From the NCBI GenBank assembly GCA_905178155.1, contig CAJINV010000033.1, positions 22,736 through 86,735 on the forward strand: a stretch of 64,000 nucleotides of DNA, written 5' to 3'. Numbering within the stretch: position 1 is the first letter of the stretch; each line of letters begins with the position of its first letter. Of this stretch, positions 518 through 55,400 are shown piece after piece. The position numbers and the translations under genes were made by a program. The notes under the pieces are model-generated. The model did no database searches. It saw only the letters and a list, made by a program, of their open reading frames with translations, and was not told the DNA's origin. Source of the DNA: Amoebophrya sp. A120. Lineage: Eukaryota; Protista; Dinoflagellata.

Positions 518-2729
518 CGGGCGCCCTTCTGTGTGGGTCCGCGGGACCACCCGGGCTACGACTTTGTGGTCGAGCCGCACGAGTATTCCAATGAAAAATG
601 CCCCCTCCCCATATCAAAACGGAAATCTGTGATGCAGATTTGTGGTCACAAATCAGCTCTGTGATGCTAGAAGGCAAAAGATGCGGACTGTAGTGCTGTC
701 TAGCGTGGGAAAGCCTTGCAGCTCCAGGATGACAGGAGGCAACTGGAAGTGGGAAACAGCATGACAGATTACCTGCACTTTAGGCCGCAGCTTCGTCTCT
801 TGGCCTTCTTGCAATACAAGTCGATTTGTGTACTCAAATACAGCATCACAAATTCGCGCATCTTCCGTTTCTGATATGGGGTGGGGGCTTTTTTCACTTT
901 GATAACGAGTGCTGGCGCTTCACCGGGTTTTTTCACCCGCGTACGAACGCGACCGCCGACTTGTCCCCCTGGTGGCCCTACCTCTCGTGGCACAAGTCGG
1001 CCATCCCGACCGTGTGGGAGCCCGTGGACCTGGACATCGAGTTGAAATTTTCGGAGCGCAGGGAAGAGAGCAAGCAGTACGCCGCGGCTTTGCGGTCCAA
1101 CTGCGTCGCAGAAAAAGACGCGCTCTACGAGGCGCATGACCTCCTGCCCGAGGTGTTCGTGCCCACCGTGCGGACCTTGCTCGGCTGCGCGCGGTGGTGC
1201 GCGCACCGCGACGACTGCGAGGGCTTCACCTTCTTTCGCCACGAAGCGCAAAACGCCCGCTGCCTGCCCAAGCGGCGGATGCGCGGCTCCGCGAAAACCG
1301 AAAACGACTGTTGCGACTCCGTGGTCATGTCATCTGAATGCCGGGCGGCGGGCAAGCGGCACGTGGCGGCGCCCTCCCCACCCTCGTATCCCCTGAAGCT
1401 GGTGACCGCAAGAACCTTGAACCCGGTGGCCTACCGCCAGGCGGTGCTTCAGGGCCAGGTGGAAGACCCGACGAAAGTGTACACCCGCGAGAACTACGCG
1501 GCGCGGGTGCTCAAGGACCAAGACCTGCACGAGGCCACGGACCGCGAAGTGGACCCTTTCTACGCGGCCCGCGAGTACGTGGTCCTCCCGCAGATGGGCC
1601 GCGAGGACGCCTACGTCCAGGTCGCGGTATTGCAAGGGAAAATCCCCCCTCCCCGTATTGAAATCGTATGCTGCTTCTGAGGTTTTGCGATGCGGATTTG
1701 TGACCACAAAGTCTGTCTGTCTTGCAGAAAGGCAAACGCAGACAGCTCGCCGTGTCATGCCGGCGATTTGTCAATGCATGTAAGGCCTACAGGGCAGACG
1801 TCTGCCATTCTTGACCATTCTAGACGCCTACACCAAAAGGACCACGCCTAGGCTTGCAATCTGCGTGCAGTCCTCTACTGCAAGACAGATTTGTACACAA
1901 ATCCCGCGGCACAGATTTCCGCTTTGATATGGAGAGGGGGGATTTCTCCTTTTGATACGCAGAGTGCTGTCACCACATCGGGCAGTTCATGTGGGACTGG
2001 AACTACCGACACGTGCACAGCGGGTACAGCCGCGTCCCGATCTTTGAGCGGCACCCCGTCTATCACACGGAAAGAGAAATAGAGCTACCACATTTGTAAG
2101 ATTTGTGATGCAAAAAGAACATAGTACTCAAGTCCAATTGCGCATGCTGTTGCTGGTATGCAAGACAACTTCTTGTACTACGCGTGATTGTAGTTTTTGC
2201 ATGTAAAAGTGTGGTAGCTTCTTTTCGGGCATAGCCTCCAGTCCTGTGTGGTGTTCTCCGAGGATATGACCCTACCGGGCGCGACCCGAGTCAAGTAGGA
2301 GAGTGCAAAAGATCTACTGCTCCTCATATCTTTGTCATGCGGCATACCGAGGAAATATAAATCCACGCTTTGCTTCTTGGTGGTGCTTTTTGCATCACAG
2401 ACTCCGGCAGCGGAAGCAGTAAGCCAAGAATCCCTTTTCGTGAGAGATTTTGTCATGCCCAGAAGCTGCACCTCTAAATGGTACGTACTGCCGCCGCTCC
2501 TGTGGTGCTCCTTGTTGTGGATGTCATGCCGACTACCTTTATAGGAGGGGGAGAGATAGGGCTTGCGCACCTTCATACCACGATCCGCGACGACATGGCC
2601 GCCGCACCGGGAGACGACATTGGGCGAGACCGGCGCTGGTGGCATGAAGAAACGGAGCCGCAGGTCCAGCAATCGTGGCCTATGCCTTGTGAAGATCACT
2701 GCTGTCAAAGTCAAGGAAAATGTCATTGA
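518..2729 (+). CDS. Hypothetical Cys/Trp-rich protein, multi-exon, 5' end outside the window; 3' end uncertain
   Basis: Removing elements 584-904 and 1628-1956 (each plus one TSD) joins ...YDFVVEPHE|CWRFTGFF...YVQVA|ECCHHIGQFMWDWNYRHV in frame. Exons are GC3-rich. Later exons (~2239-2264, ~2580-2729) are tentative. Confidence 0.55.
584..904. mobile_element. Introner element, family A1 (321 bp)
   Basis: TAT...ATA ends with G/C-tract TIRs; perfect TSD ACGAG (579-583, 905-909); excision restores frame; interior similar to 32999-33309 and 46090-46343. Confidence 0.92.
1628..1956. mobile_element. Introner element, family A2 (329 bp)
   Basis: TIR TATTGCAAGGGAAAATCCCCC / GGGGGATTTCTCCTTTGATA; TSD CGCGG/CGCAG; frame restored; reverse-complement homolog of 40574-40916. 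Confidence 0.9.
2061..2233. mobile_element. Degenerate introner (173 bp)
   Basis: TAT...ATA ends; shared AGCTACCACA/TGTGGTAGCT inverted core; TSD 3/5 (CCGTC/GCCTC); internal TGTGATGC. Confidence 0.5.
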
Positions 2730-4854
2730 TATCATTGCTGTCATTGTGCAATAGGGGGATGTTCTCACTTTGCATGTGCTGGCGCCTACTGCCTTGTCCG
2801 TCTCTCAATTAATTTCTGGATTCGTGTTTGCGGGAAAAATCAATGTCGCTAGATGAACCCGATGCTTGTTCGTCTTGACGACCCGTTTCGCATTCTTGAA
2901 TGACACCCGCTTTTCCTGACTCTGGCATCATAACAGTTTTGCAAGGCATACGGTACCCACTGCAGATGGCTCCCTAGAATTGCTTTTCGACGCGATGAAG
3001 TTCGTTATATGGCGAGAGGTGGAAACAAAAACAAATAAGTAACTTGACAAAATGACGCACAAAGTACTCACTTCGTATCTACACCTACAGCGACGCATAG
3101 ATACGCACTTGCTACAGCGACGCGTCGTGCTGTACTCTTCAAGGCGTGAAGTTGCGTAGGACGGTCGGTGCTCTTCTTTTATTTACCGTAGCTTGTTCTG
3201 TCTGGAACTGGTACCGGATTCGTTTCTCGAGTGTAATGGATTTTTTGAGCGACTGGCCGAGAATTGGAGAGAGAAAAATTGCTTCGAGGGACGAGGAGGA
3301 TGCGCTGTCAAGTTTGAAAAATAAGTACTAGACTCGGAAATCTTCTGGAAGCCGAAACGAGAACGACCAAAGTTTCACTTTCTCTTCGACCGGAAATCGA
3401 CTGTACAAACATCGTCCTGTCCCCAGGAATCTTTTCCATTGTCGCAAATCGGCAGGCTGCCACTTATTGAAAAGTCAAAGTCAATATCGCTCCTACAGTA
3501 CCCCATCGTGGTTCATCTAGAGTGCAAAGTAAAACCTGTCAAGCTGCACCCTCCTGGTCGGAGCGTGCAATTCGAGGTGGTGGTGGGAGAGAACAAAGAA
3601 AGACAGACAAGACATACTCGACGGAGAGAATTCTATACCACTACTTTTGTTTTACAAATACGGCCACTGCATCACGAGGATCGATCTGCGTACTAGGCTC
3701 AGTTCTTGGGCTGGAAAAATTCGTAGCTGGTTTTAGCTTGACCGTTTCTACTCAGCATCCACAGATCTCATGACGGATATCGCAAGAAAAAACTGTCTCA
3801 GTCTCAATTTGTACAGCGACTTTATTCGCTTTTTACTATATTACAGTGCTTCTCCACCTTTGTCATGCTGGACGCGCAAGAAAAGCAAGAAAGTCGCCCT
3901 TTGATGCGATTGGTTTGTCTTGATGTTGAGACTCAGACAGTGTTTGCATGCGATAAGCGACACCGTCGGGTGGGGCCCGAAAAACATCTTTACGCCGACT
4001 ACACTCTGCGGCAATTGGAGCGAGGACCGGTACTAGTGTTTATATGTTGGTTTTATCACATCTGGATCTGATTTCATCTGTTCGATTGCGTATTCTGCAT
4101 CACAAGTAGAACTTGCAAGAAGGTCATTGGCGTATGCATTTAGACGAATAAACTCCACTATCTGTATCACCAAAATTTAGGTGGGACAAGGAATTCCAGG
4201 AGAAGCAGCGGTATGCGAAGGTCTATGCGTTACCAGGCCGAGGGTCGACCGGTTGGACAAAGACCTCAGACGCGATCGGGGAGAACATGAAAGAAGAAAT
4301 GATCAAAAAGTATACACCCTTATTACTAGTTTGTCATGCAGTTTTCTAGTATGGTTATGGTAAACATAATGCGAACGTACGAAAAATCCACCCTCCTTGT
4401 CTGAAACATTCAAAACGTACCAAACTATTCAGGGTTACCGTGGTCCGGGAGATTGACGTGCTGAAGTATGCACAGCTGCTATCGAACAGAAGAAGTAAAG
4501 TTCTTTTCTTTTCTCGCTTCAAAACAGCATGTGAAAAAATAAACGCCGTGTATCTCTATCTGTATATGTTGATGCATGACAAACAGCTCTCGTTCTGTCC
4601 CGTGTTACTTACACGATCGACTGCAGGAGGCAGCTAATATACTGCTCAACATTACTTAGAAGTGCGGCTACGACGAGAGGACTCTTACACTCACGACTTA
4701 CGGTTGCAGTAGCGTCTAGCTCTTGTATAATTTTTCCTTTCTTGATGTTGATGATGCTGCTGTTTGCCCCGTGGTTGCTTCGTTCGGCTTTTTTGCTATC
4801 TTGAGCTGTGAAGAGGACTTTTTTCTTTTCCGCTCCATAGCCTCCCCCAGAGGA

Positions 4855-5176
4855 TATTGAGAGAAAAAATCCCCCCTCCCCATATTGAAAAGGTATGTTT
4901 CCAGAAATTTGTGTTGCGGATTTGAGGTCACAAATCACATCTGTCTTGCAAGAAAACAAGGGCAGAAGTTTCCGCCCCATTATGGAAGCGATTTGTCATG
5001 CTGTTAGCCCTAAAAGCGACCCGCTTGCCATGCTGAACAACTAGACCCATACGCCCCTACCTAGCCTGGGGATCTCGCCGCGATGCCTCTGCGCAATACA
5101 AACCTGATTTGTGTACACAAATCCAGCATCAGAAATTCCGTTTTGATATGGGGAGGGGGGCTTTTTCCTTTCGATA
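4855..5176. mobile_element. Introner/MITE, family A2 (322 bp)
   Basis: Perfect TSD GAGGA (4850-4854, 5177-5181); same length as 18719-19040 and its reverse-complement homolog. Confidence 0.92.
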
Positions 5177-7025: not shown

Positions 7026-8418
7026 ATGTTTGCTACCGCTGCTTCATCCTCCAGCAGTAGCAGTAGTTCTGTCTTTCCAGGCACGGGCTCTTGCGCGCAA
7101 TCTTCCTGCGATCATGCTGGGCAAAACACGGCAGTGTCTTGCGGCGGTGGTGCACCTGCTTCTCCGTCCGGTGGCACAACCGCGCAACAGACCCTGTTCC
7201 ACTCCCCCTACACGAAGTATTTTCTGAAGCGAAGTAGGCACAGAAGCAACGGTAGTTCGAACAATTCAAGCGGCGCACAACAAGAGCTACAGTTCGACCA
7301 CCGGCGTCGAGAGCAGGTGCCTAACCAGGAAATTTGGGAGATTTTTCTGTCGGAGAAGTACCAGCAGCTAAATTTCTCGCCGCAGCAGCTCCAACCGCCG
7401 CTGGCCAGCTTCCAGTTGATCGACCCGACGCGCATCGGCGAGGGCTGTTTCTTCCGCGCTGTCGGTGCCGGCGTGATGGGCTACGGGCTGGGCATCCTGT
7501 TGGGCGGCTTCTTCCACAGCATGCAGCCCGTGGACCTGTCCTACGGGCATCTCTCCACTGCGGAGCAGATCCGCATGAGCTACAAGGGTATCAAATGCAA
7601 AAAGGTCTGGGTCTGGAATGTTGCCAGGTTTGTCATGCATATTTTGCATGACCACCGGAATGTCTGTAATACACGACCTAGCATCACAGATTTTTAGAGG
7701 GCTTCCTGATGCCTACTCCGCATGACAAATGCCCTCCCGGCGTAGCACAAACTAGACTCCTCTTGCTGGTCATGCAATACAAATTTGTTTAGAGTCCAAA
7801 AACAGCTTGACAAGTTGCAATCTTCCAGACCCAGACACTTTTGCATTTGATAAAGGGCTTCGGCGCCAGCTGCAAGCGCATGGGCCGGAACTTTGCGAAG
7901 GTGGGCATGGTGTACTCAACCACAGAATGTTATGGATGTGTCAGGATCGAAATCGACAAAATCGAAAAATTTGTAATGCGTAAAATGTAGCGTAGGGCAA
8001 GTAAGGCCTGTGTTGGGGAGTAGGCAAATGAGACCGATTGCAAGCCTGATTAGGGGAAGGCGATGCGCTGCCGGAGCAGCACGCCAGGAGCAGTCTTCTT
8101 TGCCCAAACAGCATGACAGACTGGATTTTGGTGCTCCCGAAATTTGTCATGCGCCACTTAGAAACTGAGGCTCCAAGTGGTATCGATTTTATGGATCACA
8201 AATTATTTCGATTTTGTTGATTTCGATTCTGACACTCCCATAAATGCCTCATCGAAAAGGAGCGCGGCTGCAAGGAGCTGATCAATGCCGTTTACGCGGG
8301 CTGCGCCACCGGTGGCTTCCTCGCGTTCCAGTCCGGGCCCGCGGGCATGGCGACGGGGTGTCTCGGGTTCGCGGCTTTCTCGCTCGCCATCGAACAGTTG
8401 ATGGGCAACCATGCTTGA
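7026..8418 (+). CDS. TIM22: Mitochondrial inner-membrane translocase subunit Tim22 (Tim17/22/23 family), ~268 aa; exons ~7026-7588, 7858-7930, 8248-8418
   Basis: Spliced product ...EGCFFRAVGAGVMGYGLGILLGGFF...MGRNFAKVGMVYSTTECLIEKERGCKELINAVYAGCATGGFLAFQSGPAGMATGCLGFAAFSLAIEQLM has the Tim22 conserved Cys pair, NFAxVG, and G-P-x-G...GFAAFS motifs. Confidence 0.9.
7589..7852. mobile_element. Introner element, family C (264 bp), TIM22 intron 1
   Basis: TIR TATCAAATGCAAAAAGGTCTGGGTCTGGAA / TTCCAGACCCAGACACTTTTGCATTTGATA; perfect TSD AAGGG. Confidence 0.93.
7931..8242. mobile_element. Introner element, family H (312 bp), TIM22 intron 2
   Basis: TIR TATGGATGTGTCAGGATCGAAATCGACAAAATCGAAA versus TTTCGATTTTGTTGATTTCGATTCTGACACTCCCATA; TSD AATGT/AATGC; excision restores the conserved TEC-LIEK. 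Confidence 0.9.
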
Positions 8419-9155: not shown

Positions 9156-12100
9156 ATGGACCAACAGACTCTTTCCCAGATGACCACCGCGCCCGCCGAA
9201 CGGATTCCGGTCTTTCTCGTGACCGGGGCGACGGGGGCGGGGAAGTCAACCCTGATCGCCCACCTAATCCAAGCGCTGCCGTCCAACCGGCGCGCGATTT
9301 TGATTCGCCACCGGCACGCCAAGGCGGCGATGCTAGAGACCTTTCCGCCCCCGCGGCTAGTGGTGGATGGAAAAAGTAGAAGTAGTGCTGTTTTTCACCC
9401 AGCGCACAGAAGCCTGAAAGCGCACCAGCCCTACGAAGCAGGAGCAGTTACACGGGACGACGAAGGTGTAGCTACTGATGTTATACCTGCACAAAGTTCT
9501 TTTTACGCTGTGCGCCACTTCAGTGAGGTTTTTGATTTCGGGTCCGGCTGCGTCTGTTGCGCCCCGGACGGCGATCTGATGCGGCAGCTTGTGGAGTTGC
9601 AGGCGGAGCTGAAAAGGGATCATGTTGAGACTGGAAGTGCAACAACCGTACGCGACGTCGAGGACGGTCGTCATCAACATGCAGGACCAACAACAGCTTC
9701 ATCATCTTCGCATTTTTACTACGCCCTATTTGTCGAGACGACCGGTTTAGCCGACCCACGGCCCTTTCTCCGCGTGTTTCAAACGGAGCCCACAGTCTGC
9801 GCGCACTACGAGCTGCACGCAATTCTGTGCGTCGTGGATTCGCTGCGGTGGGAAGCGACGCTGCAGGGAACTGGTGGTGAAGAGCCGAATTATCGTGGCG
9901 AAGGAGCTAGTGCTGTAGCTGGTTCTACTTTTCCTGGAAAAATTGCGGACGTTGACGGCGAGAGGACGACCTCCACAGAGAGCCTCCACTCGCGGGGTCG
10001 GGAACAGCTGCGCGTCGCAGACTTGGTGGTCGTGAACAACTTTCATTCTTCGTCAAGTGGTTCTTCTGCAGGCACAAAAAGCTACTCAGCTAGTACGAAA
10101 AGTAAAAGCAGTACTCCTGCGGCTTCAAGTCGTGTTTCTAAATCCGAAGTAAAAACATCGGAAGGTGAGGTGGAACTGCGAGTATTAGACTCGTCGCGCC
10201 AGCACCAGGAGCTGCAGCCACATCGTGTTCCCAAAAAGTTGCAGCGACTGGTGATGGAATGTTTTGTCGGGCGGAATGAGACCTCCACCGCGGGGGTGTG
10301 CGGGCGTCAAGCAGACCTGTCAGGCAGTACAGGTGGGGTTCTTGCTGCGTCGACTGAAGATCATGACAATCGTGTGGTGGCCTGGGCACCTCCTGTACTT
10401 AATACCACTGTGACGTCGAGCTCGAGAGGACGACCAGATGAAGATGCAGTGCTCGCGCCAAACAAAATTGTTTTCGAGCAATTTTCATCTGCACAGACTT
10501 CTACAGATGTTGAAGTATTCGAGGGCACGACCGAGCAGGTGGATGAAGACCGTCAAGAAGGGATGCCGAAATCTAGCTCCGCAGCGCGAGCGCCTGGGCT
10601 GAAGAACATGACTTCTCCAAATTTACTGCGGATTCGGAATTTCTATGAGAGAAGACAAGAAAGAGCACCTTCTGGTGTGCTGAACAAACAGGCACGGAAT
10701 AAAGGCGCGTCTGCCTCGGACGACACGGCTGGTAGGGCTGATTTGATGCCCGGTTGCGGCGATGCTTGCACCAGTGCAATGGGAACTACTGCTACTTGTA
10801 TGTACGAGGATTCGGCTATCGTTAACAAGCCCGCCGGAACTGCGTCCGAAAAAGAAGAGCAAGGTCATCAAGAATCTTCCAGTAGAAAAGATGGAGAGCA
10901 GACGCAGACACCTGCTGTGCCGCCAGGCAGCGGACACGTGATGTCTTCCGTTGTACCGCAGTTTTTCAGTTTGAACGCAGATCCGCTGGAACACGATCGG
11001 TCTTTTCAAACGGCCTGCGTATTCGGCGACGATTGCACTTTGCTCGACTTTGACCGCCACTGCACCCTGATGCTGACCATGATGACCGAGGGCGCTCTGC
11101 TTCGCGTGCAAGGCTGGCTGTCGTTCAATGTAGTGCATCAACTAGAACCTGCGACGCTATTTTCTACTTCTCGTCCCGCGGCGAGGAAAGCAAGCGAGCA
11201 GGGAGCTGCCGCACCTGCGAATGAGTCCTCTTCTGCTGCGTCTTCTACCTTAAAAGATGAATCAACGAGAACTTCTCCCAACTCCTTCCCACTACTTCCC
11301 AACCTCCTCTCCCCAACCGTGCTGATCGACGCCGTTGGGCCTTACCCGGTGACCATGAAGTTCCGTCCGCTCACGAGGTTGTTTGTCGCGCAGGCAGAAC
11401 ATGAGGGCGAGAGACATATTGACCGAAGAACTTCGATGACGATCGCCCCCTCCTGGGGCCTGCACGCGGGGGTGCACGAAGCCGTAAGTGAAAGTGGATT
11501 CGTGTGTATGGAAAGATGCACAGAGTAGAAAGGCCAAGACTTAGTATTTGCAAGGGGATGTTGACGTATGCCTCTGCAGAAGCAGATGTTATACATTTAC
11601 CAATGAGAAAGTTTAGTCTACTGAAATTCATCTGAGCTGCAATTTGCTCAACATTTCTACCGAGTTTATTTTCATTCTGCCACAGCACGACAAGCTAAGC
11701 TTCGCCCTATTCTTCTGTCTCCGTGTATATTCTGTTCCAGTTCGAAACTTTTCTTCTGTGGAAAACGGGGCAAAACGAACAGGGACCACTTGTCTTCCTC
11801 TCGCAATAAAAAGAAGTCCAGCGAGATGAACTCCACACGGACCGACTTTTTGGACTACGACTCGGAGATGCGGCAGGCTTTTCGCGCGGCGCCGCGGGGT
11901 CGGGGTTGGCGGTTCTACGACCTGAAGTTGGTGATGCAGGACGTGGTTGCCGAACTGAGGCACACAGTCGAGCGCTTTTTGATACTGCGAGAAACAAGCG
12001 GGGAAGGAGACCCAAACAAGCTGCAGAAAAATCCCGCTGGTCGGTCTTCAGGAGGACCACAAGCACGCCTTGAGGAGCTACGCGATGAACTCCCTGCTCC

Positions 12101-13963: not shown

Positions 13964-16900
13964 ATGTTGAAGCGTCCTGACGTTACAACGCCCCACATGT
14001 CGCGTCGACCCGTGCGGAGTTCAAGTCTCGCGAGGCGGGGGAAAGCCCGGGCGTACTTTGACCAATCGTCTACGACGTGCCGGGATGTAGCTGGCCTGGC
14101 GCGCCTTGTCCACCGACTACAACCCACGAAGAGAGCTGTAGTTTATTTCCCGCTACCTCTCTACGCGCCACTACTATTCCTACTACTTCTACATTTGGGC
14201 GGGTTGACGACACTAACGCAGATATTTTTCCCTGTCAGCGATGACGACGACCGGCCTGGGTCGACGTCGTCGACGACGGCGTCAGGAATTTTTAATCTGC
14301 CCCTCGCCCATGCGGCGCTGTCCGTGCCATCCGGCTACGAGTCCCTCATGTTCGACATCCGAGACCGTGTGCTGGTGTCGGAAAGAGACCTGGAGAAACC
14401 GAAAGCCGACCGGGTCTGCTACGCACTGGGGACAAATAGAGCTGTTGTTCATCTAGTTCTCTACGATCATCATAAGAAAGTGGTAAGTAGTTCTTTTGTA
14501 CGCAGCCTGGTGGTCCTGTAAAAACCGCTCCTGGATAGAGTACCAACATGCGGCCTAATCGTAGTAGCATCCATCTTGTAAAGACCCTCTACGTGGTAGT
14601 CCATCACTTTTTGCTCTCGTGTGGTCTTCCAGTAAATAAGTGCATGAAATAAAACTACCCCCCTTTCGAAGATGAGTGCGGGCTTCATCCTCGAAAACGG
14701 TTCTACACGTGCAACGGACGGCAAGCCTTGAGTGCAGCAAGTGCACAGGCAGAAAATTTCGAAGGAACTGCAAGAGCATCATGCATTTTTTCTGTATCGA
14801 TATCGAACTGAACAACAATCGTTCTGGAATGTCTCAGTTGCATAAGATCTCATCAACGGAGGGACCCTATTGTCTTCCGAACACCCAGCACTTTCTCGGG
14901 GATACGGTATTGCGTACTAGGGTTGTTTGTAGTTTCTTTTTGTTACGATTACCCAACAACCATGCAATGGATGTCCAATGCCGTTTGCCAATCCTAGGCC
15001 TATCTTCACCACCATGGCACTCTATGTGAAGCGGACATGGAGACAGTATTAATCTGTATCAACCTCCCAGGTGCTCTCCCGGCGTCTATTCGGTCCGGAA
15101 GCGGTGGCCGACGCGTTAAAGACTCTGAACGAGTACTTGCAAAAGCATTCCGACGAGCTGTTTCAGAAGTATCGGCAGAAAATGAAGAAGGCCGCCGCGA
15201 GTAGCGCCGCGCTGCCGAACGGGAATGCTGGCAGCAGTGCCACGAAGTCTGGGGCCGCCAAAGACCAGGGCGCTCTTGCTTCTGGCTCGGGCTCCTCTTC
15301 GAGTAGAAATCAGGTCACAAAACTCTCCAGTGAAGGGAGCGGAATATCAAATGCGAACAAGGGCAAGGATCTATCCCAAGCTGAAGCTCCTGCAACCTCG
15401 CAAGTGGAGCTGGACTCTTCGGGGGGCGGTCGGTTCGATGACATGATGAAGACCATTTTTCCGGAGGGACTCGAAGCCACAAACGTTACTGTGGAGGACC
15501 TCGGTATCCAGAGTGAGCTTATTTCTGCCATTGTTCACGATGAACTTGAACATGAAATGCACAAACTACACTCTTGCATTTAGATTAAAAATTGCGTAAA
15601 TTTACTATAAGCAGCATGACAATTGGTGTCGGCTTCTGAGGGGCTACTTCTAGTAGATGAAGTTTGTTGTGGTTTTTGTACCGTATGTAGTCCAACGGCG
15701 GGAATAAGTTTGTACTCCTGCACACTCGACGCCGCGATGCAATTGATGCAGTTGATGGAGGGTGCGTTTCCGGAATCCGATTGGCCGGCGATGCGGGAGC
15801 AGCTGGAAGGGGTCAAGGAGAAGCTGCGCTTGAGAGAACAAGCGAAGCAAGCGTCTTCTGCAACGTCCAAAACTACAACCGGCACGACCGCAAGTGACCA
15901 CAGCGGAGATCAGACAGCCGGCGCCTCAAACGACCAAGGGACGAACAATGCGAGTGGTTCGTCTGCCAGTAGTTCCACAGAGAGCAAGAGAGAAAGGGTG
16001 AAGACGGAAGACGTGGTGGATGGCGACGAAGAGGGCCTGTTCGGCAACAAAACTGCGGAAGAAGAAATCGACGCGCCAAACGGGAACAATAGACCTACAC
16101 AGTCCTCCTCGTCCACACAGGAAGGCGACAACGCAAATGCCGCCGGAGCGGCTGACGAGCAGGGACGAGAAGAACCGACGGAGCAGGGTCATACTGCTAC
16201 GCAAACTCCTAATGCTGGTGCAGGTTCGGATAGTGGTCGTGCAGATACCAGCGAGTATGATAGTGGTACAGGATCTGGTTCTGGTGCGCATCAAGAAACA
16301 GAACCACCTACGGGCTCTTCCAGTCCGCAGGACCAAGGAACGTCGGCCCCAGGAGGCGTCCCCCCGCCGGGAGAACAAGAGGCTGGCAGTGGCGGAGGCA
16401 GCGGCGCCCCTACGTCAGGAGGTTCTTCTCCTGCCACGACGGCCTCTGAGCAAGAAGACCAGCCCCCACCTGCAGGAACTACGGGAACACCACCGGGTGA
16501 AAACAGTCCGACGGAAGCAAGTACGACTGCTACTGCTACTACTCCACCAGCAGCGGAGAGCAATGGCGCTGTTGTTGCCACCACGACCAGTAGTAACATA
16601 GAGGAGAGTTGGCGAACCTCCGAAGACATGCAACTGCTCCGCGAGCAGGCATACTTACTGACGGACAACCAGAAGCGGAAGCACAACGATTACGAGCACC
16701 GGCGGACGAACGAGACGCTGACTGATTGGCGCTCGGAAAAGCGCGCAGAGTTGTTCAAGTACGAACATGAAGGGCACTACGACAATAACCACTTTCAGCA
16801 GCAGGAAAAACGCGCTGTTTTTACGGACGAGTTTACACACACCAACCCGACGGCGTTCATGCGGTTTATGGAACTCTCACACGTTTTATTTACATTGATC

Positions 16901-41874: not shown

Positions 41875-41915
41875 CGCTCTTGATTCCTTTCACCGAATGC
41901 TTTTCCGGGTACGTT

Positions 41916-42175
41916 TATCCAAGGAAAAAGATTTTTGATAGTGTGACTGTAGTGAGTCTGTGATGCCTGCGCACCATAGAAGATATTTGCGTCTGTAATC
42001 CATCTCCATCTGCATGCAAATGCGTTTTATTCACATAACAAGTACAACTTACTATCTGCGCATGACAGGAGGCTTTTGCTGTCATAAAAAAAAACAAATT
42101 TCTTTCTGTTCACTGTTAGTTTTACTTTTCCCCAAAAAGAGAAAATACTAAGAGACACACTTTCTTTCTGGCATA
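41916..42175. mobile_element. Degenerate family-D-like element
   Basis: TATCCAAGGAAAAAG...TTTCTTTCTGGCATA; internal TGTGATGC and GCATGACA; TSD eroded. Confidence 0.4.
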
Positions 42176-43880
42176 ACAGGCCGCGCTCGTGCGGTACGCC
42201 GAAGATCCTGACTCTCCCGGCGCCGTCTCCTATGGCCAGGCCAGGTGTTACAATCTCAATTGTTTATATATGAATAAAGATGTGGATTATTTTTATTTCG
42301 GTTTTATATTGCGTGAACCACACGAGGAAGTGCGAAAAGCGCGACGCTTTCCATCTTACTGGAAGATAGGAAGCGACGCGTTTTTCGCAATACTTACAAC
42401 AAATTGTGTCAGATAAAAAGTCTAGTGCGCTTGTAAGCTGCGAAGCTTGCCATGCGCAACATTATTCCTGCGGTGATAGGCCAGATTAATCAGCAGCACC
42501 AGCATTTGCATCACCATCACGAATTTTCGCTTTACTCATGGCAACGTTTTCTGATATTGTAAGCGGGGTACATCTCCAAAGTTGGCTTTTTTGGCGACCC
42601 AGACGCGGTGGCGGAAGTCCTACACACTCGGCCACCCGAAAGTGCTACACGCTCGGCTACCCCCTGAGGATTGATTTCATATCTGCCAAGTCTGCATGGA
42701 GTTTGCACGAAATAAAGGGCGTCTTGAGTGACAACATGATAGATGTGTTTTGCGTAGCATGAAGCTGGAGGTGGAGCTGCTGCTTCAAGAATCGATGAAC
42801 AACTACAATCCAGCACTTATCGAAACTTCTCTAGAAGTAGTCGTGGATGAATGTTTTTCGATTTCAACAGTACCGATCATGAAGTTTGCATTCTTGGAGC
42901 TGGAGCGCAGTTTTTGAGAGAGTGAAGATTCGCTGCGTCGACTGGCAAAGTTGACATGTTGAGCAGAGGCCATCGTGCCGGAGGGAGTTGAGAAGGGGAA
43001 GAATGAGAATCAAGAGTCGAGAAATATTTATACGAAATGCCGTCCTTCCGCGTCGATTGATCTCGTCGATTTTCCAGCGTCTGTGTCGTGGCAGATATGT
43101 CCGAAAAAGTGCTGCTGCTACCTACTTTGATTATAGCCAAGGAATTTAGAAGAAGGTCGATTTAATTTGGATTACAAGGTCGTGTAGTGGTTGTGGTGTT
43201 GAAAAGACGAGACAGATGCAGATCAGGAGTAAAAGCCGCTAATATCCGAGTGCGAGCGATAAAAGTTAACCTTTCATCACTTTCTCCTACTTGAATTTGA
43301 AGAAATTCAGCCTTCATCCAACCATTATCCACTGCAAAAGCATCGCATAATTGGTAAAGTGTTGCCGGAAAAATGAAAATACATGCACAGATGAGAGACG
43401 TCTTTTCTTACCTGCACCTGCTGAATGAATTTGGCATGCAATTGATACCAGTGTGATGCAGCTTTTGCAATGCATAAGCGTGGACGGGTTTCTAGATGTC
43501 ACGGAGCTCGAAGACTACGTTCTCGGAACATATCGACTGCAAATATCGAAGATCTGGCTCCTGCTTTGGAATCAAGTCGTCATGCTAGTAGTATAGTACT
43601 ACGAGTGACACTGACAGACAAACTGCATTACTTAAGCGGCCGAGCATGACAAATGAAAAACTATTGAGCGTAGAAATGCCTTAGAATGCGGATGAGAAGT
43701 GTCGTTTTTGCATCACAAAGAAGCAGCGCTTCGATTTTTGGACGTCCGCGGTCTGCATCATTTTTACACGAAGTTCATCTACTTGTACTTTCGGACTTCT
43801 TGTTCTGCATTCGAAATCGAATTCAGTGCCGCATCACGACGAGTTTTGCGAAAACCATCGTGTTTCACACAAGGAGTCAG

Positions 43881-46800
43881 ATGAAGAATATTATTTGCAG
43901 TGTTGATACTAGAGCAGTTTCTACAGCCACGAGAACGTCTACTCCGTCGAGTACGACTACAGTAGGGGCTTCTTGTGAAGAGAGCAGCAGCAGGACGGTG
44001 TCGCGCAGTGCGGGCACTACTCCTACATCTTCTGCCGGTGGCTCCAGCTCCACGACCAGTGCTGCTTCGCGAGCAATTCGGACGTTGTCGTCAAGTTATG
44101 CACCTTCCGTCTCCCTTGGTTCGTCAACTTCCAACATGACTGTGCCCGTTGTGACCTACACCAGTCGCCGGCTGCCGCTGTTCGACCTGTGGCGCAGTGT
44201 CGGGATTTTCTTCCTTGTCATCCTCTGTGGAGTCACAATCACGGTATTAAGCCTAGGCTGTGCCATATATTTGTTTCTGCTTTCACCATTCATTGTTTGC
44301 TTACTATGTGCTGGTAGGGCTGCCGTTTATTTGATGATGGCATAAGGAATTCTTTCTACTCTAGACTTTCGCTTGTTTCAGTTTCTTTTTCCGAACAAAT
44401 TTGTTACGTATGTACTGAGTCTTAGTAGTAGTAGTTCCACGGAAGATCTTCTGTTCGGCTACCAAGAATTCTTTGTGTTGTCTCGTCCAGTAAGAAAGAC
44501 AAAGAACACAATGATCAAACTCTACAAAAATCGCACAGTGGCAGCATCTGACCTCCTCTCTGCTACCTGCGTCGCCAAAATCGTCCCCCGATCAAACAAA
44601 TCCGCTGGACGAGGTTCGTGGGAACAAACTGACCACGACATTATCCTACAGCAAAACGTTCCTGCCCTAGTAGAGTCAAGATGGAGACTTTGCAACGCAA
44701 ACCATGAGGCTTTGGCTGTTGCGCATGACAAGTTCTTTGGGCTCGTAGTGTAATAATCCTGTTTCGCTAGTGCAGCCGCGGCGTGAGCAATCTGCGATCT
44801 CATTCTGATGCTAGCATCACAAACTTCCAGCTACCATAATAGTAAGAATTGCGTGTCACGTTGGCTGCGCACGAGAAACTTTCTAGGCCTGCAGATTTGC
44901 ATTACAATTGTGGGGTGGGAGCGTTTTTCCGCAGAATACACACCGCCCCGGAGTCTCGCGTTCGACGACGACTGGCTGCAGTTAAAGGGGGAAAACACGT
45001 TTTTGCAACTGAAGGAACTGCAGCAAGAGCAACTGGGACAAGGGATGACCAAGATGGACAAGAAGCACACGGTCGTGATGAAAACGGGAGAAGATAAATC
45101 GCACCAGAACAAGAAATATCAAATGCAAAAATGTCTGGGTCTGGAAGAGAGTAAACTTGTCATGCGGTTTTTCATGACCCAGGAGGTCTGGAATGCGGGA
45201 CCTAGCATGACAGAGTCTGAGAGGTTTCTGCCATGCCTATCCTGCATGAGAAACTTCCTCCAAACTTGGTCGAAGTTGGACAGCTTTTGGCACTCATGCA
45301 ACACAGATTTCTGCGTGATTCGATTTTAGCATGACAAGTTCCAACCTTCCAGACCCAGACATTTTTACATTTGATAAGAAAGTGGAACAAGGAGCAAGCG
45401 CAGCAAAGAAATCATCCACAACCTTCACCCAGGAACAGCAGGTGGCCGCACCCAAGCACGCCGCCAAGGGAAAACCGAAGGGGAAAGCGAAGGAGCCTCA
45501 CCCGGAACCAGAAGAATCGGAGGAGGAAGGATCGCCCGAGGATGGCGAGAAGGAATATGAAAAGTGTAAATCCAAATTCTTGTTATTTGTCTTGGTCGCT
45601 GCAAAATAAGTAGACGGAGTGTTGCAAAAATGCTTGATGACTGTCATGAAACATCAAGTGAAACGTCGCTACACGACTTTGTAAGCAGGCATGTCGCACT
45701 ACGAGGACGAGGACGAACTATCGCTGTGTCTATGTTCAGGTACTACAGCTTTTTTTCCCAGTACCATGATTATACATGTTGATCCGTCTACACACGGCAC
45801 CATACGACCCTGACACAAATTGGAATTTTTGTGAGCGACACATAGGAGAAGGAGAAACACGACGAAGATGAAGAGAAGGAGGATGGTGAGGGGCCAACGA
45901 CCGAGCCGCCGCTGGATGACGGCAAGATGACGCTGTACGTGATCATCGGCATTCTGCTTTTCTGCCTGCTGGTCACGCTCGGCTTGCTGGCGTACAAGTT
46001 TTCCCAGACCACCACCAGTGCGGGGTACGGGCGCGCGAGCAAGGGCGGCAAGAAAGGCGGCAAAGGCGGCAAGACGATGGGCGGCGGAGTATCAAGAAGA
46101 AAATTCCCCCCTCCCCATATCAAAACGGAAATCTGTAGTGATGCAGATTCGTGGGAAAGCCTTGCACCTTCAGCATGGCAGGAGGCAGCTGGAAGTGGGA
46201 AACTGCATGACAAGTTGCCTGCAACCAAGGCCACAACTGCGGCTCTTGGCCTTCTAGCATTACAAGCCGACTCGTGTACTCAAATACAACAGCATCACAA
46301 ATTTCGTTTTCGATAGGTGGAGGAGGGATTTTTTCTTTCGATACGGAGGAAAGGGGAAGGGCAAAATGCCAGAAGAAGACCCGTTCGCCGACGACGACGA
46401 GAACGCCGGAATGATATCAAATGCAAATATGTCTGGGTCTGGAAGAATGCTGATGTTTGTCATGCTGTTTTTGCATGACAGAAAATGTCTGTCATGGAAG
46501 CCCTAGCATCACAGATTTGGATTTCGAGAAGCTTCCGCATTGCTTAATCCGCATGACAAATCCCCCATTTTGGTGACAGGAAATGGGCACCTTTTGCTGC
46601 CTATGCATGATAATTTTTTGGTGTTGTGAAATGCGCATCACAAGTTCGCATCCTTCCAGACCCAGACATATTTGCAATGCATAAATGATGGACGACTACA
46701 ACGATGACGGCCCCGGTATGGGATAATTCTCAACTGTTACATTCTCAACCGTTCCATGAATTTGCGATGCGAGAATGTTGGCAAAACAAGGCAAGTAAGC

Positions 46801-47047
46801 AAGAGGGGGAAGATTGCGCGTTTTGCATAATACAGGTTTGGCGCAGATTTTAATGCTAAGCATCGAGCAGTTGCAGTTCGAGAACTTGCCATGCGAAGCA
46901 GCTTGATCATGCCCTAGGTACCGATGGCAATTTTGCATGACAGCTTTATATCGTAAGCAAATTGAGAGTGTAACGCTTGAGAATCCCTCCATAGCCGGGG
47001 GCTACAGCGCCGGCGCGGGGTACGGGGACGACCAAAACTACTACTAA
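43881..47047 (+). CDS. Hypothetical membrane protein with two hydrophobic segments and a Gly/Lys-rich then acidic Tyr-containing tail; 7 introns, 5 of them introners
   Basis: GT-AG intron 44244-44538 joins GVTIT-WQHLTS. Introner excisions join to ...MTLYVIIGILLFCLLVTLGLLAYKF...GGGGKGKGKMPEEDPFADDDENAGMMDDYNDDGPGGYSAGAGYGDDQNYY*. Start could be 43686. Intron ~45565-45845 is unresolved. Confidence 0.6.
44642..44938. mobile_element. Older family-E introner (297 bp)
   Basis: TATCCTACAGCAAAACGTTCC...AGTCAAGATGG resembles 26832-27116; TSD GACAT/CACAC; frame restored. Confidence 0.7.
45117..45376. mobile_element. Introner element, family C (260 bp)
   Basis: Perfect TSD AGAAA; frame restored (QNKK-VEQG); close to 52518-52779. 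Confidence 0.93.
46090..46343. mobile_element. Introner element, family A1 deletion derivative (254 bp)
   Basis: Perfect TSD CGGAG; interior matches 584-904 minus ~60 bp. Confidence 0.9.
46415..46683. mobile_element. Introner element, family C (269 bp)
   Basis: Perfect TSD AATGA; TIR core ATATGTCTGGGTCTGGAAG; interior related to 7589-7852. Confidence 0.92.
46717..46993. mobile_element. Introner element, family G (277 bp)
   Basis: TATGGGATAATTCTCAACTGTTACATTCTCAA versus TTGAGAGTGTAACGCTTGAGAATCCCTCCATA; TSD CCCGG/GCCGG; frame continues to the stop at 47045-47047. Confidence 0.82.
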
Positions 47048-48226: not shown

Positions 48227-48871
48227 ATGGACATTCCCTACGAGCGTTTCAATCTCCTCGAGACCCTCCCCGAGACGCAGGAGGCCGTCCCCTGATATCC
48301 TGTGCAAAAGTCCTATTGACGTCGTGTCTACTGGTCCTACAACAACTTGCGGCCATGCAAGACAGCTCTGTCTCTGTTGTTAGACCTGAACAAAAGCTGC
48401 ATGACAAACTTGTTGAACAAAAGCTGCGTTGTTCTTGTTGAGAAATTTTGTCATGCGAGCGCGTGTGCGACACCGACACCGACACGAAACACTTTTGCAG
48501 CCCTGCATATCTGGATGCAGAAGTGGATTTCGCCCCACCAGCGGTTTAACTGGCACCACAAGAGGGACGCGGACAACTGGAACCCGCGCGACGCACCCCC
48601 ACCCATGGAGTCGAACAGCGGAAAGTTGATCGCGTACAACGGCTCCAAGGCCTACAACCACCTGTTCCCTGAAAAGCAGTTGCAGCGGTCGGATTCCGCT
48701 CCTCAGTTTCCCGCGAGAAACAACTGGAAGGTGAACAAATACGGGCCAAAGGAGCCGGCAAGGCTCGGCGGGGGGATTTCCAGCTGGCAACCCAGTCACT
48801 CCGATGTACAATTTGGTCTTTGGTTTTCTATGTTCTTTGATGGTAGTGTGTCGTGCGTTTCGAAAATTTGA
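48227..48871 (+). CDS. Small hypothetical protein; 3' end uncertain, with a possible further exon near 49258-49342
   Basis: MDIPYERFNLLETLPETQEAVP joins WMQKWISPHQRFNWHHKRDADNWNPR after removal of 48296-48509; GC3-rich codons. Confidence 0.5.
48296..48509. mobile_element. Older introner (214 bp)
   Basis: TAT...ATA ends, TGCAAAAGT/ACTTTTGCA inverted core, internal GCATGACA and TGTCATGC; TSD CCTGA/TCTGG. Confidence 0.7.
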
Positions 48872-52419: not shown

Positions 52420-55400
52420 ATGACTACAGCGCCGAATGGACAAACAAATAGTAGACCGAGCTGGTGGCGGACCATGCTGTTCGGGAGGACGTCGGGCAGT
52501 GGTGTAAGTACACCAGGTATCAAATGTAAAAATGTCTGGGTCTGGAAGAGTGCAAGATTTGTGATGCAGGTTTTCCATGACCCATGAGGTCTGGAATGCG
52601 AGACCCAGCATGCCAGATTCTTTGAGGTCTCTATCATGCCTCTCCTGCATGAGAAACTCCCTCTCAACTTGGTCAAAAGCGGACAGCTTTTGGCACTCAC
52701 GCAACACAGACTTTTGCATCATTCAGGTTTAGCATGACAAGTTGCATTCTTCCAGACCCAGACATTTTTACAGTTGATACCAGGCTCATCAACTCGTCCA
52801 ACTACCGGCGAAATAGGACCTTCTGGCGAAAGTGGCGTGGACGAGCGAGTCCGCGGACAACACCAGAGCGAAGAGATGATCCTTGCACAAGAACCAGGAT
52901 CTTCATCGCCTGGTGAGCGTCGTGCTTCCCCCACACACCGCCACCAGGTCGGATACGCTAAAACATCAAATACGGCCGCGAGTGTTCTTCCTCCCGCCTC
53001 ACATTCACCGGAGAGCATGCTTCGCGAGTTCTTTACTGGCCAAATCGATGCAGTTTCTGCCAACTCCGATTTTACTACTGCCGCGTCAACAACTGGTGTT
53101 GCAAAAACTTCAAAAACTAGTACCCCGGGTCAACATCTGGCGCTGGCCGCAGCACAGGTGCCGGTAGCTGCTGACAGAGACGTTTTTGGAAGGATGAAAA
53201 GGGAGGAGCAACGACCGGCAAAAACGTTGGACGTGTCTTCTAGAAGTGCTGCGCACCATTATGATAAAGCTTGTAAGCCGGCTTTCGCGTCAACCAAAAG
53301 CGGGTCGGTGTCCTCGCGGACTGGAGGACAACATCATTCTTCTCACTATAACCATATTAACCGGGAGACGAAAAGAGACAAAGGATCAGCTCTCAAGAAA
53401 AAGGAAAGTCAACGTAAGCCAGAAGAACACGAGAGAACCGGATTCCTGACTTCGGAAAACGAGAGACTACGACGGGAAAGGAGAGAAAAAGAAAAAGCCT
53501 CGCGGTCCAGTTATTCATCTTCCAGGAGTGGCGCGGCGGCTAGTACTGCTGCGGTGCACGACGAAGTACCACCTCGTGGAGGTGTTATTCCTCCGACCAC
53601 GCTTCGCCGCGGACAGCTTTCGCCCGAGCAGTTGCGGCAGGAGCGCCTCAGGCAGAGTATGGCCGCGACCTCCGACGATGAGTACCTGCAAATGATGGGA
53701 CTAGATCTGAAACACACGCCGCCGACAGCCGCGGGGTACATTCTCGGCTACCGCGGGCCGCAAGGGCGGCGTGGTGCTAGGCGTGGAGCAGGTGGTAGCA
53801 GCAGTAAAAAACCCAAAGGAAGTAGCAGGACTTCCTCTAGTGCAGCTAATGGACGAGTAGAGATGACAGCACCAAGAAGTAGACCAGGTCTAGATCTTGG
53901 GTACTATCAACAACCTTTTCCGCAGCATCACCTCCCAGTAACAGACAGTACGTCGGAAGAGCCAACATCTTCAGAGAGCTGCCACACCAGCAGCCAAAGC
54001 AGTAGTGCCGCCTCCTCGGCCTCTTCGTCGCCCGTTTCGTCCGCGTCTTTCGCGGCTTCTCTTGAAGACCGGGTGAGCTTGGAACGAGATTTCGGACACT
54101 TGCAGATTGGGGGCGGCGCTGGCGCAGAACGAGAAGTAGACCAAGGAACTGTAACTAGGCAACTACAGGGAGGACTAGGGCGAGATGACGAGGAGGACCA
54201 GTTATGTGGTTTCGATGTGGAGCAAGAATCGAATGACGACGTAGAACCTCTATTTGGGCGCAGACCGCACACCACGCAGTATCGAAGAAGAAGAAGCGAT
54301 GCTGAGGGAGATAATAGTTCTAACTCAGCATCTTCCGCCGGCAGTGGAAGTTTGATAGTTGCATCAACAGCACCAGACTCAAAAACAGGACGAGCTGGTC
54401 TTTCTTCATCATCTGCGGTACCTGTTCTAGAACAGGACCTTCCCAGTACCCCCTTCGACAGCGCTATGCAGAAACGGGCCGCGTCGCTGCGAAGAAACAG
54501 CTCCGAAACTGCTGCAGAGGAAAGAAGCAGCGAAGAGTTATCTTTGTCTCCCGCAGGAGCTCCCCTCTCGCCAGGTGCAGCTACTACGCACCGGTCTCGC
54601 CCAAGAGTCCGGAGCCGAAGCTCTTTCTCCTCGGATTCCGCCGCGGCGTCCACCCGGGCGCCGAACAGCGACGACGATATGAAAACCACCCCGCGGAGCT
54701 TCCAGGGAGGAGGTCCTGCTCGTCCACACGGTACTACTAGAACCAACAAACTAGTCAAAGATCATGGACTGAAACCGAAAAGACGAAAGGGTGGGCCGGG
54801 AATATTAAGTTGCGGATCTTTATTCGGGACGCCGACTGCTCAACACGCGACAAAGGAGCATGATCAACATCTTGACACTCCTGCTGCGTTATTTCCTGCT
54901 CCGAGGACGTCGGAGGACTACACCGTGCGGGGTGGGCACAAACAAGAGCAGCCAGTGCAGCAACAACCGATCGTGGAGGCAGGTTCAACATCGTGGATGT
55001 TAAACGGTTGGACTAGAAGCGGCGGACAGGAACCGCAACAACAGGAGGCAAGACAACAGCAGGGCCGCACGACCAAACCAGCTAACGAGGACCACGGGGC
55101 TTCCATTCCCGTCATTACCTCCTCCGCGCCGATCCTTTCGCCGCAGCCTGTCCGCGTGCCTGCTGTGGTGGGTGGCACCGCAATGCTGACTAGAGGAGCG
55201 ATTTCGCACCTTTTTTCGCAGCAGCTGCAGCCAGTCCCCGAGGTGGACACCAGTGCGTCGTGTAGTTCTGGGTCGTCGGGAACTTCGTGCGACGAGGGGC
55301 GGGGTAACAAGCGCGAGAAGATCCTCACGACTGATTCTACTGGAGGCGACATAGTTACCACTTCTTCTACTAGCGCTGCAAAAGTGAAAGAACAGGAACC

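What the first reader, a model, noticed from the sequence alone, without database searches (positions are those of the whole stretch)
584..52784. Multi-family transposon-intron system: TAT...ATA MITEs with 5-bp TSDs must be excised precisely without GT-AG
Seen: about 25 well-bounded elements from at least 8 TIR families interrupt coding sequence, including conserved TIM22 and glutaminase. Removing the element plus one TSD copy restores the frame. Only 52517-52783 gives GT-AG. At 583-909 a GT...AG pair exists but using it shifts the frame into a stop. Established: introner-type non-canonical introns with inverted and direct repeats are reported in Amoebophrya, and DNA-transposon introners in Micromonas and Aureococcus. 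Inference: a structure-guided or protein-guided removal pathway recognises the paired TIRs rather than splice dinucleotides. DNA-level excision in a somatic or stage-specific genome is an alternative.
Basis: partly seen in the sequence, partly recalled or inferred. Interest (0 to 1): 0.85.

Follow-up and report, generated by a model that had tools for sequence, protein, structure and literature searches.

The report
Amoebophrya transposon introns cut by ruler
Small transposon copies that interrupt genes of the marine parasite Amoebophrya A120 are missing from spliced transcript contigs, cut one base before and four bases after their own ends rather than at GT-AG; these introns were described in 2021, but this fixed cut position is sharper than the published text and likely reflects an altered splicing machine.

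Summary
The window is Amoebophrya sp. A120: removing the elements gives TIM22 and glutaminase identical to NCBI's A120 proteins. The TAT...ATA elements with 5-nt direct repeats are the 'introner elements' of Farhat et al. 2021 (PMC7789003). Contigs of four probable RNA runs (one sample) skip element plus 5 nt at 9 of 9 pre-called sites and at 5 decayed ones.

What this adds: all 13 non-canonical joints fit one register, N-TAT...ATA-N4 (3 mismatches; next best of 81 registers 12). The paper's legend calls the border variable or unknown. The cut needs neither GT/AG nor a matching TSD, works in both element orientations, and persists in 4 of 5 decayed copies with no predicted terminal hairpin. 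A GCATGAC motif is shared by 21 of 26 families.

Most likely machinery: an altered U2 spliceosome (0.55), since every donor keeps U+2 A+3. Main rival: a Euglena-like non-spliceosomal pathway (0.33). Excision from DNA is unlikely.

The parts
584..904 (+). TAT-type element, family 4, perfect 5-nt TSD; predicted intron 583-908 in a PAN-domain gene
   Evidence: no RNA laid
1628..1957 (+). TAT-type element, family 4, TSD 4/5; predicted intron 1627-1961
3778..3955 (.). TAT-type element, singleton, TSD 3/5; not shown to be in coding sequence
4855..5176 (.). TAT-type element, family 4, perfect TSD; coding context not shown
7026..8418 (+). TIM22 (Tim17 family) gene with two element introns; spliced product identical to P0001
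7589..7852 (+). Family 0 element in TIM22; intron 7588-7856 (GT..GG), skipped in contigs of 3 of 4 runs
7931..8242 (+). Family 6 element in TIM22, TSD 4/5; intron 7930-8246 (TT..TG), skipped in 4 of 4 runs
11507..11729 (+). Decayed element in a CobW-domain gene; intron 11506-11733 (GT..CT), skipped in 2 of 4 runs; no predicted terminal hairpin
14420..14844 (+). Decayed element (starts TAC), TSD 1/5; intron 14419-14848 (CT..AT), skipped in 1 of 4 runs
15505..15724 (+). Decayed element (ends ACA), TSD 4/5; intron 15504-15728 (GT..CG), skipped in 1 of 4 runs at depth 3.9
16867..17230 (+). Decayed element, TSD 4/5; intron 16866-17234 (TT..TT), skipped in 2 of 4 runs
17618..17780 (+). Canonical GT-AG intron in the same large gene (internal control)
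18341..18664 (+). Family 8 element (ends GTA), perfect TSD; intron 18340-18668 (AT..GG), skipped in 2 of 4 runs
18719..19040 (+). Family 4 element, perfect TSD; intron 18718-19044 (CT..TC), skipped in 2 of 4 runs
21350..21675 (+). Decayed element, TSD 1/5; intron 21349-21679 (TT..TC) cannot slide and fixes the register; skipped in 3 of 4 runs
22330..22544 (+). Family 2 element, TSD 4/5; intron 22329-22548 (GT..AC), skipped in 4 of 4 runs
22582..22790 (+). Family 2 element in the orientation opposite to 22330, perfect TSD; intron 22581-22794 (CT..CG), skipped in 4 of 4 runs
24122..24389 (+). Family 0 element, perfect TSD; intron 24121-24393 (GT..CG), skipped in 4 of 4 runs
26438..26674 (+). Canonical GT-AG intron, skipped in the same contigs as element introns
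26832..27116 (+). Family 3 element, perfect TSD; intron 26831-27120 (TT..CG), skipped in 4 of 4 runs
27242..27391 (+). Family 1 element, perfect TSD; intron 27241-27395 (GT..CG); loose ends in 4 of 4 runs continue with the next exon
   Evidence: table 7
27443..27754 (+). Family 8 element, perfect TSD; predicted intron 27442-27758
29420..35827 (+). Glutaminase-ankyrin gene; spliced product identical to P0004 (1926 aa)
32643..32948 (+). Family 8 element in glutaminase, TSD 4/5; intron 32642-32952
   Evidence: annotation, no joint seen
32999..33309 (+). Family 4 element in glutaminase, perfect TSD; intron 32998-33313
38734..39640 (+). 907-nt TAT-type element, TSD 4/5, holding a nested 602-nt TIR element (38885-39486)
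39702..40558 (+). 857-nt TTA...TAA element with 81-nt TIR and perfect 5-nt TSD; removal plus 5 nt keeps the frame; no Pfam transposase hit
40574..40916 (+). Family 4 element flanked by a 23-nt duplication (5-nt TSD 2/5); removal in the register keeps the frame
41565..41874 (.). Decayed TAT-type element; coding context not shown
41916..42175 (.). Decayed TAT-type element; coding context not shown
43326..43476 (.). Decayed TAT-type element; coding context not shown
44642..44938 (+). Family 3 element, TSD 3/5; predicted intron 44641-44942
45117..45376 (+). Family 0 element, perfect TSD; predicted intron 45116-45380
46090..46343 (+). Family 4 element, perfect TSD; predicted intron 46089-46347
46415..46683 (+). 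Family 0 element, perfect TSD; predicted intron 46414-46687
46717..46993 (+). Family 7 element, TSD 4/5; predicted intron 46716-46997
48296..48509 (+). Decayed element; keeping the base before TAT in the exon would give a stop codon
52518..52779 (+). Family 0 element, perfect TSD; predicted intron 52517-52783 is the only GT-AG case

Best explanation
These are the published introner elements of Amoebophrya A120, MITE-like insertions with 5-nt target duplications that are absent from spliced transcript contigs, cut one base before the opening TAT and four bases after the closing ATA, likely by an altered U2-type spliceosome that reads the element's own ends as splice signals. Steps: (1) insertion by a DNA transposase or integrase that makes 5-nt duplications (inferred from TIR, TSD and copy number; enzyme not found). 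(2) Removal of element plus 5 nt, which restores the original exon exactly (shown in contigs). (3) The 5' cut is placed so that the intron reads N-U-A, as the canonical donor reads G-U-A (register shown; reading by U6/U5 or a protein in place of U1 inferred). (4) The 3' cut is set by distance from ATA, with no AG (register shown; ruler inferred). (5) Because both ends carry the same motif, either orientation is spliced, and the long hairpin likely helps young copies but is not predicted in most old ones. I put RNA-level removal in this register at about 0.9; the confidence below is for the whole account, including the spliceosome as catalyst.
For: Host and identity; A120 IR motif TAT + 7 nt + AAA and 3-5 nt DRs in PMC7789003. 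Skipping of element plus 5 nt at 13 of 13 non-canonical joints listed, with canonical introns skipped in the same contigs. Only offset 1 is allowed by all 13 joints; best of 81 registers by 3 against 12 mismatches; chance of the fit per decayed joint at most 0.012. T at +2, A at +3 and A at -5 in 14 of 14 supported introns; both canonical introns also start GTA. All 9 predominant A120 splice pairs in the paper's Table S4 start N-T, and the 7 of 9 A25 rows I saw start TT where the A25 IR starts TTA: two element classes, two offsets, both giving U+2 A+3 (my inference). No GT or AG choice: first base A/G/C/T 43/42/33/32 and AG 12 of 150 oriented copies in metagenome loci. Orientation 34:33 in family 0. 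A120 keeps 83 of 89 spliceosomal proteins and U2, U4, U5, U6 with U1 not found, while a strain with mostly GT-AG introns has U1 (PMC12005148). Tunicate precedent for MITE-derived non-canonical introns spliced by the spliceosome (PMC11282704, PMC13326754).
Against: No direct evidence for the catalyst: no lariat, no branch point. Positions +1, -1 and -2 look free, which by my recall of spliceosome structures fits the active site poorly; Fritillaria keeps preferred ends. The shared GCATNACA motif lies about 33-55 nt from the 3' end in most families, but its candidate branch A is not better kept on the sense strand (38 of 259 changed against 24 of 241). TIR conservation is symmetric (183 against 168 changes over positions 1-20, 98 copies), which transposition alone would explain. 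TA at +2/+3 is also simply the TIR. The exact offset rests mainly on one non-sliding joint (21349) plus two joints flagged 'between: not known'; all four runs are one sample and RNA is a guess by the tool. In the window G is the first base in 14 of 32, more than in the metagenome set. A U1-70K homologue exists in A25 (PMC12787238), so U1 may only be divergent.
Confidence: 0.55

Rival explanations
1. Same RNA-level register, but cut and joined by a dedicated non-spliceosomal nuclease and ligase that binds the TAT/ATA ends (and perhaps the shared internal motif) and measures 1 and 4 nt, as proposed for Euglena nonconventional introns.
For: Architecture N1-TAT...ATA-N4 parallels Euglena's N3-CAG...CTG-N5, a complementary triplet pair with fixed spacers (PMC12501133). 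Free terminal bases, both orientations, strong hairpins in young copies (z -2.7 to -13.5 in 21 copies), symmetric conservation.
Against: U+2 A+3 matches the canonical donor in A120 and, by Table S4, in A25 with another offset. 4 of 5 decayed, spliced copies have no predicted terminal stem. No such enzyme is identified; none lies in the window.
Confidence: 0.33
2. The elements are excised from DNA in a transcribed stage, like ciliate IESs, and the RNA merely copies the cleaned gene.
For: The elements look like DNA transposons; RNA contigs cannot by themselves tell DNA excision from splicing. The joint table of the DNA-like run was cut (15 shown, 466 not shown).
Against: Contigs of run X5 pass through four whole elements (41916, 43326, 46717, 48296) at depth 42-45, the depth of exon contigs. 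At 21349 the flanks match at 1 of 5 positions, yet the join is exact. The 4 of 4 joints that can tell the register from its mirror follow transcription direction, although elements lie in both orientations; that alone is about 1 in 16 by chance.
Confidence: 0.04
3. The joints are reverse-transcriptase template switches across hairpins between direct repeats; real mRNAs keep the elements or use cryptic GT-AG sites.
For: Hairpin plus direct repeat is the known setting for such artefacts (recalled); 8 of 13 joints are at such sites, and only cDNA-type contigs were seen.
Against: The joint at 21349 has no shared bases and no predicted stem. One 7,564-nt contig skips several elements in series. Unspliced TIM22 stops at residue 223, before most of its Tim17 domain, and the spliced form aligns with two other TIM22 relatives. 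The GT-AG option at 583-909 shifts the frame.
Confidence: 0.03

Closest known systems
Introner elements among the non-canonical introns of Amoebophrya A120 (Farhat et al. 2021, PMC7789003; abstract, sections 10-12 and 16, passages and supplement passages read; figures not seen)
   Same: Same organism; IR starting TAT + 7 nt + AAA; 3-5 nt direct repeats (5 bp in Fig. S19 legend); many families; RNA-supported; no internal transposase; hairpin model.
   Different: The Fig. 3 legend calls the splice sites variable relative to the hairpin and the border unknown; here one register fits 13 of 13 joints, including decayed copies. Orientation, branch point and a shared internal motif are not discussed in the passages read.
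Nonconventional introns of Euglena (PMC12501133 passages; PMC11282704 section 6)
   Same: MITE-like origin, complementary terminal triplets, fixed spacers with the longer one 3', sliding borders from direct repeats, unknown machinery.
   Different: CAG/CTG with 3 and 5 nt against TAT/ATA with 1 and 4 nt; Euglena prefers a purine at the start of the next exon, not seen here (84 of 150); circular product reported there, untested here.
MITE-derived non-canonical introns of Fritillaria (via PMC11282704 section 6 and PMC13326754 passages; Henriet 2019 not read)
   Same: TIR/TSD elements spliced without GT-AG in a genome that keeps the U2 spliceosome.
   Different: Fritillaria has preferred ends (AG-AC, AG-AT) and keeps U1; A120 ends are free at +1, -1, -2 and U1 was not found.
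DNA-transposon introners of Micromonas, Aureococcus and others (PMC9860276, PMC12130899 passages; Huff 2016 not read)
   Same: Non-autonomous TIR elements that create introns and restore mRNA length using the TSD.
   Different: Those carry or co-opt canonical splice sites; here only 1 of 33 window elements and 2 of 142 metagenome copies are GT-AG.

Membership tests
Amoebophrya A120 introner elements | Host is Amoebophrya A120 | tested here: met
   P0001 and P0004 are named Amoebophrya sp. A120 and are identical to the spliced models
Amoebophrya A120 introner elements | Terminal inverted repeat starting TAT, then about 7 variable nt and 3 or more A | tested here: met
   TAT in all families; the A run in families 0-4 and 8, absent in 5-7
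Amoebophrya A120 introner elements | 3-5 nt direct repeat at the exon borders | tested here: met
   5-nt repeat in 136 of 163 strong-TIR copies in metagenome loci; 23 of 33 window elements at 4/5 or better
Amoebophrya A120 introner elements | Repeated, in families | tested here: met
   26 clusters among 269 elements; summed contig depth above 88,000 against about 45 in single-copy DNA
Amoebophrya A120 introner elements | Removed from transcripts at non-GT-AG borders | tested here: met
   13 joints and one loose-end join; runs are one sample, RNA inferred
MITE (non-autonomous TIR DNA transposon) | Short, TIR, TSD, no transposase | tested here: met
   7 ORFs of the two long window elements have no Pfam hit below E 0.25
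MITE (non-autonomous TIR DNA transposon) | Mobilised by an autonomous partner with the same ends | not testable with these tools
   No whole genome held; longest same-ended stretches in fetched loci are about 1 kb with ORFs of at most 150 codons where checked
U2-type spliceosomal intron | GT/GC-AG ends | tested here: not met
   0 of 14 supported element introns
U2-type spliceosomal intron | Branch point adenosine | tested here: inconclusive
   Candidate motif at a fitting distance, but no sense-strand excess conservation
U2-type spliceosomal intron | Lariat intermediate, snRNP dependence | not testable with these tools
   Only contigs; raw-read runs X8 and X9 gave 10 and 1 reads
Euglena nonconventional intron | N3-CAG...CTG-N5 and purine at the next exon start | tested here: not met
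   N1-TAT...ATA-N4; purine in 84 of 150. It works alike but is not a member
Euglena nonconventional intron | Excised as full-length circle | not testable with these tools
   no suitable reads
Micromonas/Aureococcus-type introner | Canonical splice sites carried or co-opted from the TSD | tested here: not met
Programmed DNA elimination (IES-like) | Absent from the DNA of the expressing genome | tested here: inconclusive
   Present at full depth in run X5, life stage unknown, joint table cut

The most novel reading that the evidence does not exclude
A120 runs a second, complete splice code, N-TAT...ATA-N4, read by a dedicated machine that is not the ordinary spliceosome and that arose in parallel with Euglena's N3-CAG...CTG-N5 code. 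It turns any transposon with these ends into a harmless intron in either orientation, keeps working after the hairpin and TSD decay, and the GCATGAC motif shared by unrelated families is the binding site of its factor.
Probability: 0.3. Interest if true: 0.8.

Novelty: already known. Interest (0 to 1): 0.45.

Why it matters
The elements and their non-canonical splicing are in print, so the finding itself is not new. How they are spliced is still open. A fixed register turns 'variable borders' into a testable code: it predicts the exact ends of the excised RNA for tens of thousands of introns (29,850 repeated introns in PMC7789003), tells where to look for lariats or circles, gives gene finders a rule for this genome, and allows a direct comparison with the Euglena code and with the tunicate spliceosome. 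I did not find the register stated in the passages read or in five searches, but the figures of PMC7789003 (Fig. 3, S19-S25) and Roy et al. 2023 were not visible to me and may already show it.

Tried and rejected
Whole-genome search for an autonomous element: no genome held. Pfam on 7 ORFs of the two long elements: nothing credible. Family 0 TIR in viral contigs: 0 matches. Rfam on the window: 0 matches. No listed holder was on record as RNA; X1-X4 are taken as RNA because they skip GT-AG introns. In one search the DNA-like run filled the joint table, so no joint was seen for the 32-52 kb elements; those rest on frames and, for glutaminase, on NCBI's annotation, which may derive from the same kind of RNA data and is not independent. 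My first guess that G is selected before TAT (14 of 32 in the window) did not hold in metagenome loci (42 of 150; family 0 22 of 84). The branch-point reading of GCATNACA found no support. Rows dropped: one search used 150 of 252 metagenome elements (no stop, strand margin above 5, 60 nt of flank); one search used 142 of 237; one search used 98 of 191; strand was called by a codon model, which agreed with the + strand at all 6 RNA- or annotation-supported TIM22 and large-gene elements with joints that it scored, but is unverified in those loci. A false call at 24607-25631 (inside an exon) was dropped. I could not resolve the introns at about 45555-45848 or 2083-2400 without RNA.

Full report
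1. Observation. A scan for TAT...ATA pairs with inverted ends, a probe search for further termini and the RNA joints give 33 TAT-type elements of 150-907 nt between 584 and 52779. Fifteen have a perfect 5-nt direct repeat and eight match at 4 of 5 positions. A scan that assumes no terminal letters finds 16 TIR-plus-repeat elements against 0-1 in each of five simulated windows. Thirty-two were clustered with metagenome copies into 8 multi-member families and 10 singletons. Removing element plus 5 nt opens the frame at 28 of 33 sites: for example a 3,156-codon frame from 15 to 28 kb after removing 11 elements and 2 canonical introns, a 1,041-residue CobW-domain protein, TIM22 and glutaminase. 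Other removal lengths break the long frames.

2. What it is. TIM22 exon 1 is 100% identical to an NCBI protein named Amoebophrya sp. A120, and the spliced TIM22 and glutaminase equal the A120 proteins letter for letter. Farhat et al. 2021 (PMC7789003) report that over 60% of A120 introns are non-canonical, that many carry 8-20 nt inverted and 3-5 nt direct repeats, that A120 IR motifs start TAT, then seven variable bases and at least three A, that 29,850 repeated introns form 1,954 families, and that U1 snRNA was not found. The window's elements match that description. The system is therefore already known, from this genome.

3. RNA evidence. Contigs of runs X1-X4 (one sample, one study; RNA is the tool's guess, backed by their skipping two GT-AG introns) laid on 7400-27399 give 15 joints: 2 canonical and 13 not. 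Eight are at elements I had called beforehand, a ninth (27242) shows as a loose end continuing into the next exon in 4 of 4 runs, so 9 of 9 pre-called sites are supported. Five more joints reveal decayed elements. Every one skips element plus exactly 5 nt. Two of the five are seen in one run only (depth 5.6 and 3.9).

4. The register. Direct repeats let a joint slide, but decayed repeats narrow it. The joint 21348-21680 cannot slide (3 of 4 runs, 255 nt a side) and puts the intron start one base before TAT and its end four bases after ATA. Offset 1 is the only value allowed by all 13 joints. Scoring all 81 combinations of 0-8 nt at each end without prior TIR calls gives 3 mismatches for 1/4 and 12 for the next best; the chance that a random interval of the same length and slide fits with at most one mismatch is 0.003-0.012 for each of the five decayed joints. 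In 14 supported introns T+2, A+3 and A-5 are invariant, T+4, T-6 and A-7 hold in 13, and +1 and -1 to -4 vary. At 48296, keeping the base before TAT in the exon would give a stop. The nine predominant A120 splice pairs of the paper's Table S4 all start N-T, as this register predicts, while its Fig. 3 legend calls the border variable or unknown. I could not see the figures.

5. What the machinery does not read. A TIR pattern fetched 144 metagenome loci from one assembly; they share families with the window at 67-91% identity and yield 252 elements, 5-nt repeats being the rule (136 of 163 strong-TIR copies). In 150 copies oriented by a codon model, the first intron base is A 43, G 42, C 33, T 32 and the last two are AG in 12; GT-AG occurs in 2 of 142. 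Family 0 lies 34:33 in the two orientations, and the two family 2 copies at 22330 and 22582, which face opposite ways, are both skipped. So neither dinucleotides nor orientation matter much. TSD identity is not needed (1 of 5 at 21350 and 14420). Twenty-one intact copies fold far better than shuffles (z -2.7 to -13.5, 12 shuffles each), but the five decayed, spliced copies do not (z 0.4 to -2.4), and four have mean mirror-pairing probability 0.01-0.02. A protein-stabilised short stem is not excluded.

6. Shared internal motif. GCATGAC (either strand) is in at least half the members of 21 of 26 families, 15 of them singletons; TGTSATGC and its mirror occur 7.5 times per kb in window elements against 0.09 in coding and 0.22 in intergenic DNA, and not in the two canonical introns. 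It sits about 30-55 nt from either end in most larger families. Its TGC/GCA core is well kept in both orientations, and the A that could be a branch point is not better kept on the sense strand. It may be a transposase site or a host-factor site; it is weaker in decayed copies (2 hits in 1,413 nt).

7. Mechanism. Shown: TIR/TSD anatomy, high copy number, removal of element plus 5 nt from transcript contigs, the 1/4 register in 13 joints. Inferred: insertion by a transposase or integrase making 5-nt duplications (PMC12130899 describes an A120 TIR family with Copia/Gypsy-like ORFs; a link to these families is untested), and the catalyst. I favour an altered U2 spliceosome (0.55): the donor reads N-U-A like the canonical G-U-A, in A25 the IR starts TTA and the predominant introns start TT (7 of 9 rows seen), which again gives U+2 A+3; nearly all spliceosome parts are present and U1 is not found, whereas a strain with mostly GT-AG introns has U1; tunicates set a precedent. 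Against it stand the free terminal bases, no branch signal and symmetric conservation. The rival (0.33) is a separate nuclease-ligase like the one proposed for Euglena, whose code N3-CAG...CTG-N5 has the same build. DNA excision (0.04) and template switching (0.03) fit poorly for the reasons given under rivals.

8. Novelty. Already known as a system; the register, the independence from TSD match, orientation and predicted hairpin, and the shared motif are refinements that I did not find in the text read (searches). They rest on one RNA sample, 13 joints and a strand model. Earlier notes of this scan describe position-set 3' cuts in other dinoflagellate and marine protist genomes; I did not test them. 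Interest 0.45: little surprise in the elements, but a concrete rule that makes an open question testable.

Noticed in passing
window 39702-40558: 857-nt element with TTA...TAA ends, 81-nt TIR and perfect 5-nt TSD, inside an apparent exon. Its start (TTA, two purines, G) fits the motif that PMC7789003 gives for strain A25, not A120. Removal plus 5 nt keeps the frame; no RNA cover; no match in the fetched loci.
   Followed up: partly
window 38885-39486: 602-nt TIR element with other termini nested inside the 907-nt element 38734-39640.
   Followed up: partly
window 40574-40916: Element flanked by a 23-nt duplication instead of a 5-nt one; removal in the register would leave an in-frame 6-codon tandem repeat, a way for insertions to lengthen proteins.
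   Followed up: partly
window 421-512 and 41242-41495: Partial or decayed elements with only a right end recognisable.
   Followed up: no
window 2070-2450, 5650-5950, 45555-45848, 48790-48960: Stretches rich in the TGTSATGC motif without clear TIRs; likely further decayed non-canonical introns.
   Followed up: no
window 29420-35827: Glutaminase of 1,926 residues whose catalytic domain is split by an insertion of well over 800 residues, with C-terminal ankyrin repeats.
   Followed up: partly
window 1-64000: All genes I could model lie on the + strand (PAN-domain, TIM22, CobW-domain, a 3,100-codon unknown, glutaminase, a 2,000-codon unknown, SDA1), as in the co-oriented blocks described for Amoebophrya.
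   Followed up: no
window 32642-33313, 22329-22794, 46089-46997: Elements often come in close pairs that leave exons of 30-70 nt; metagenome contigs show the same (joints). Spacing against nucleosome linkers was not tested.
   Followed up: no
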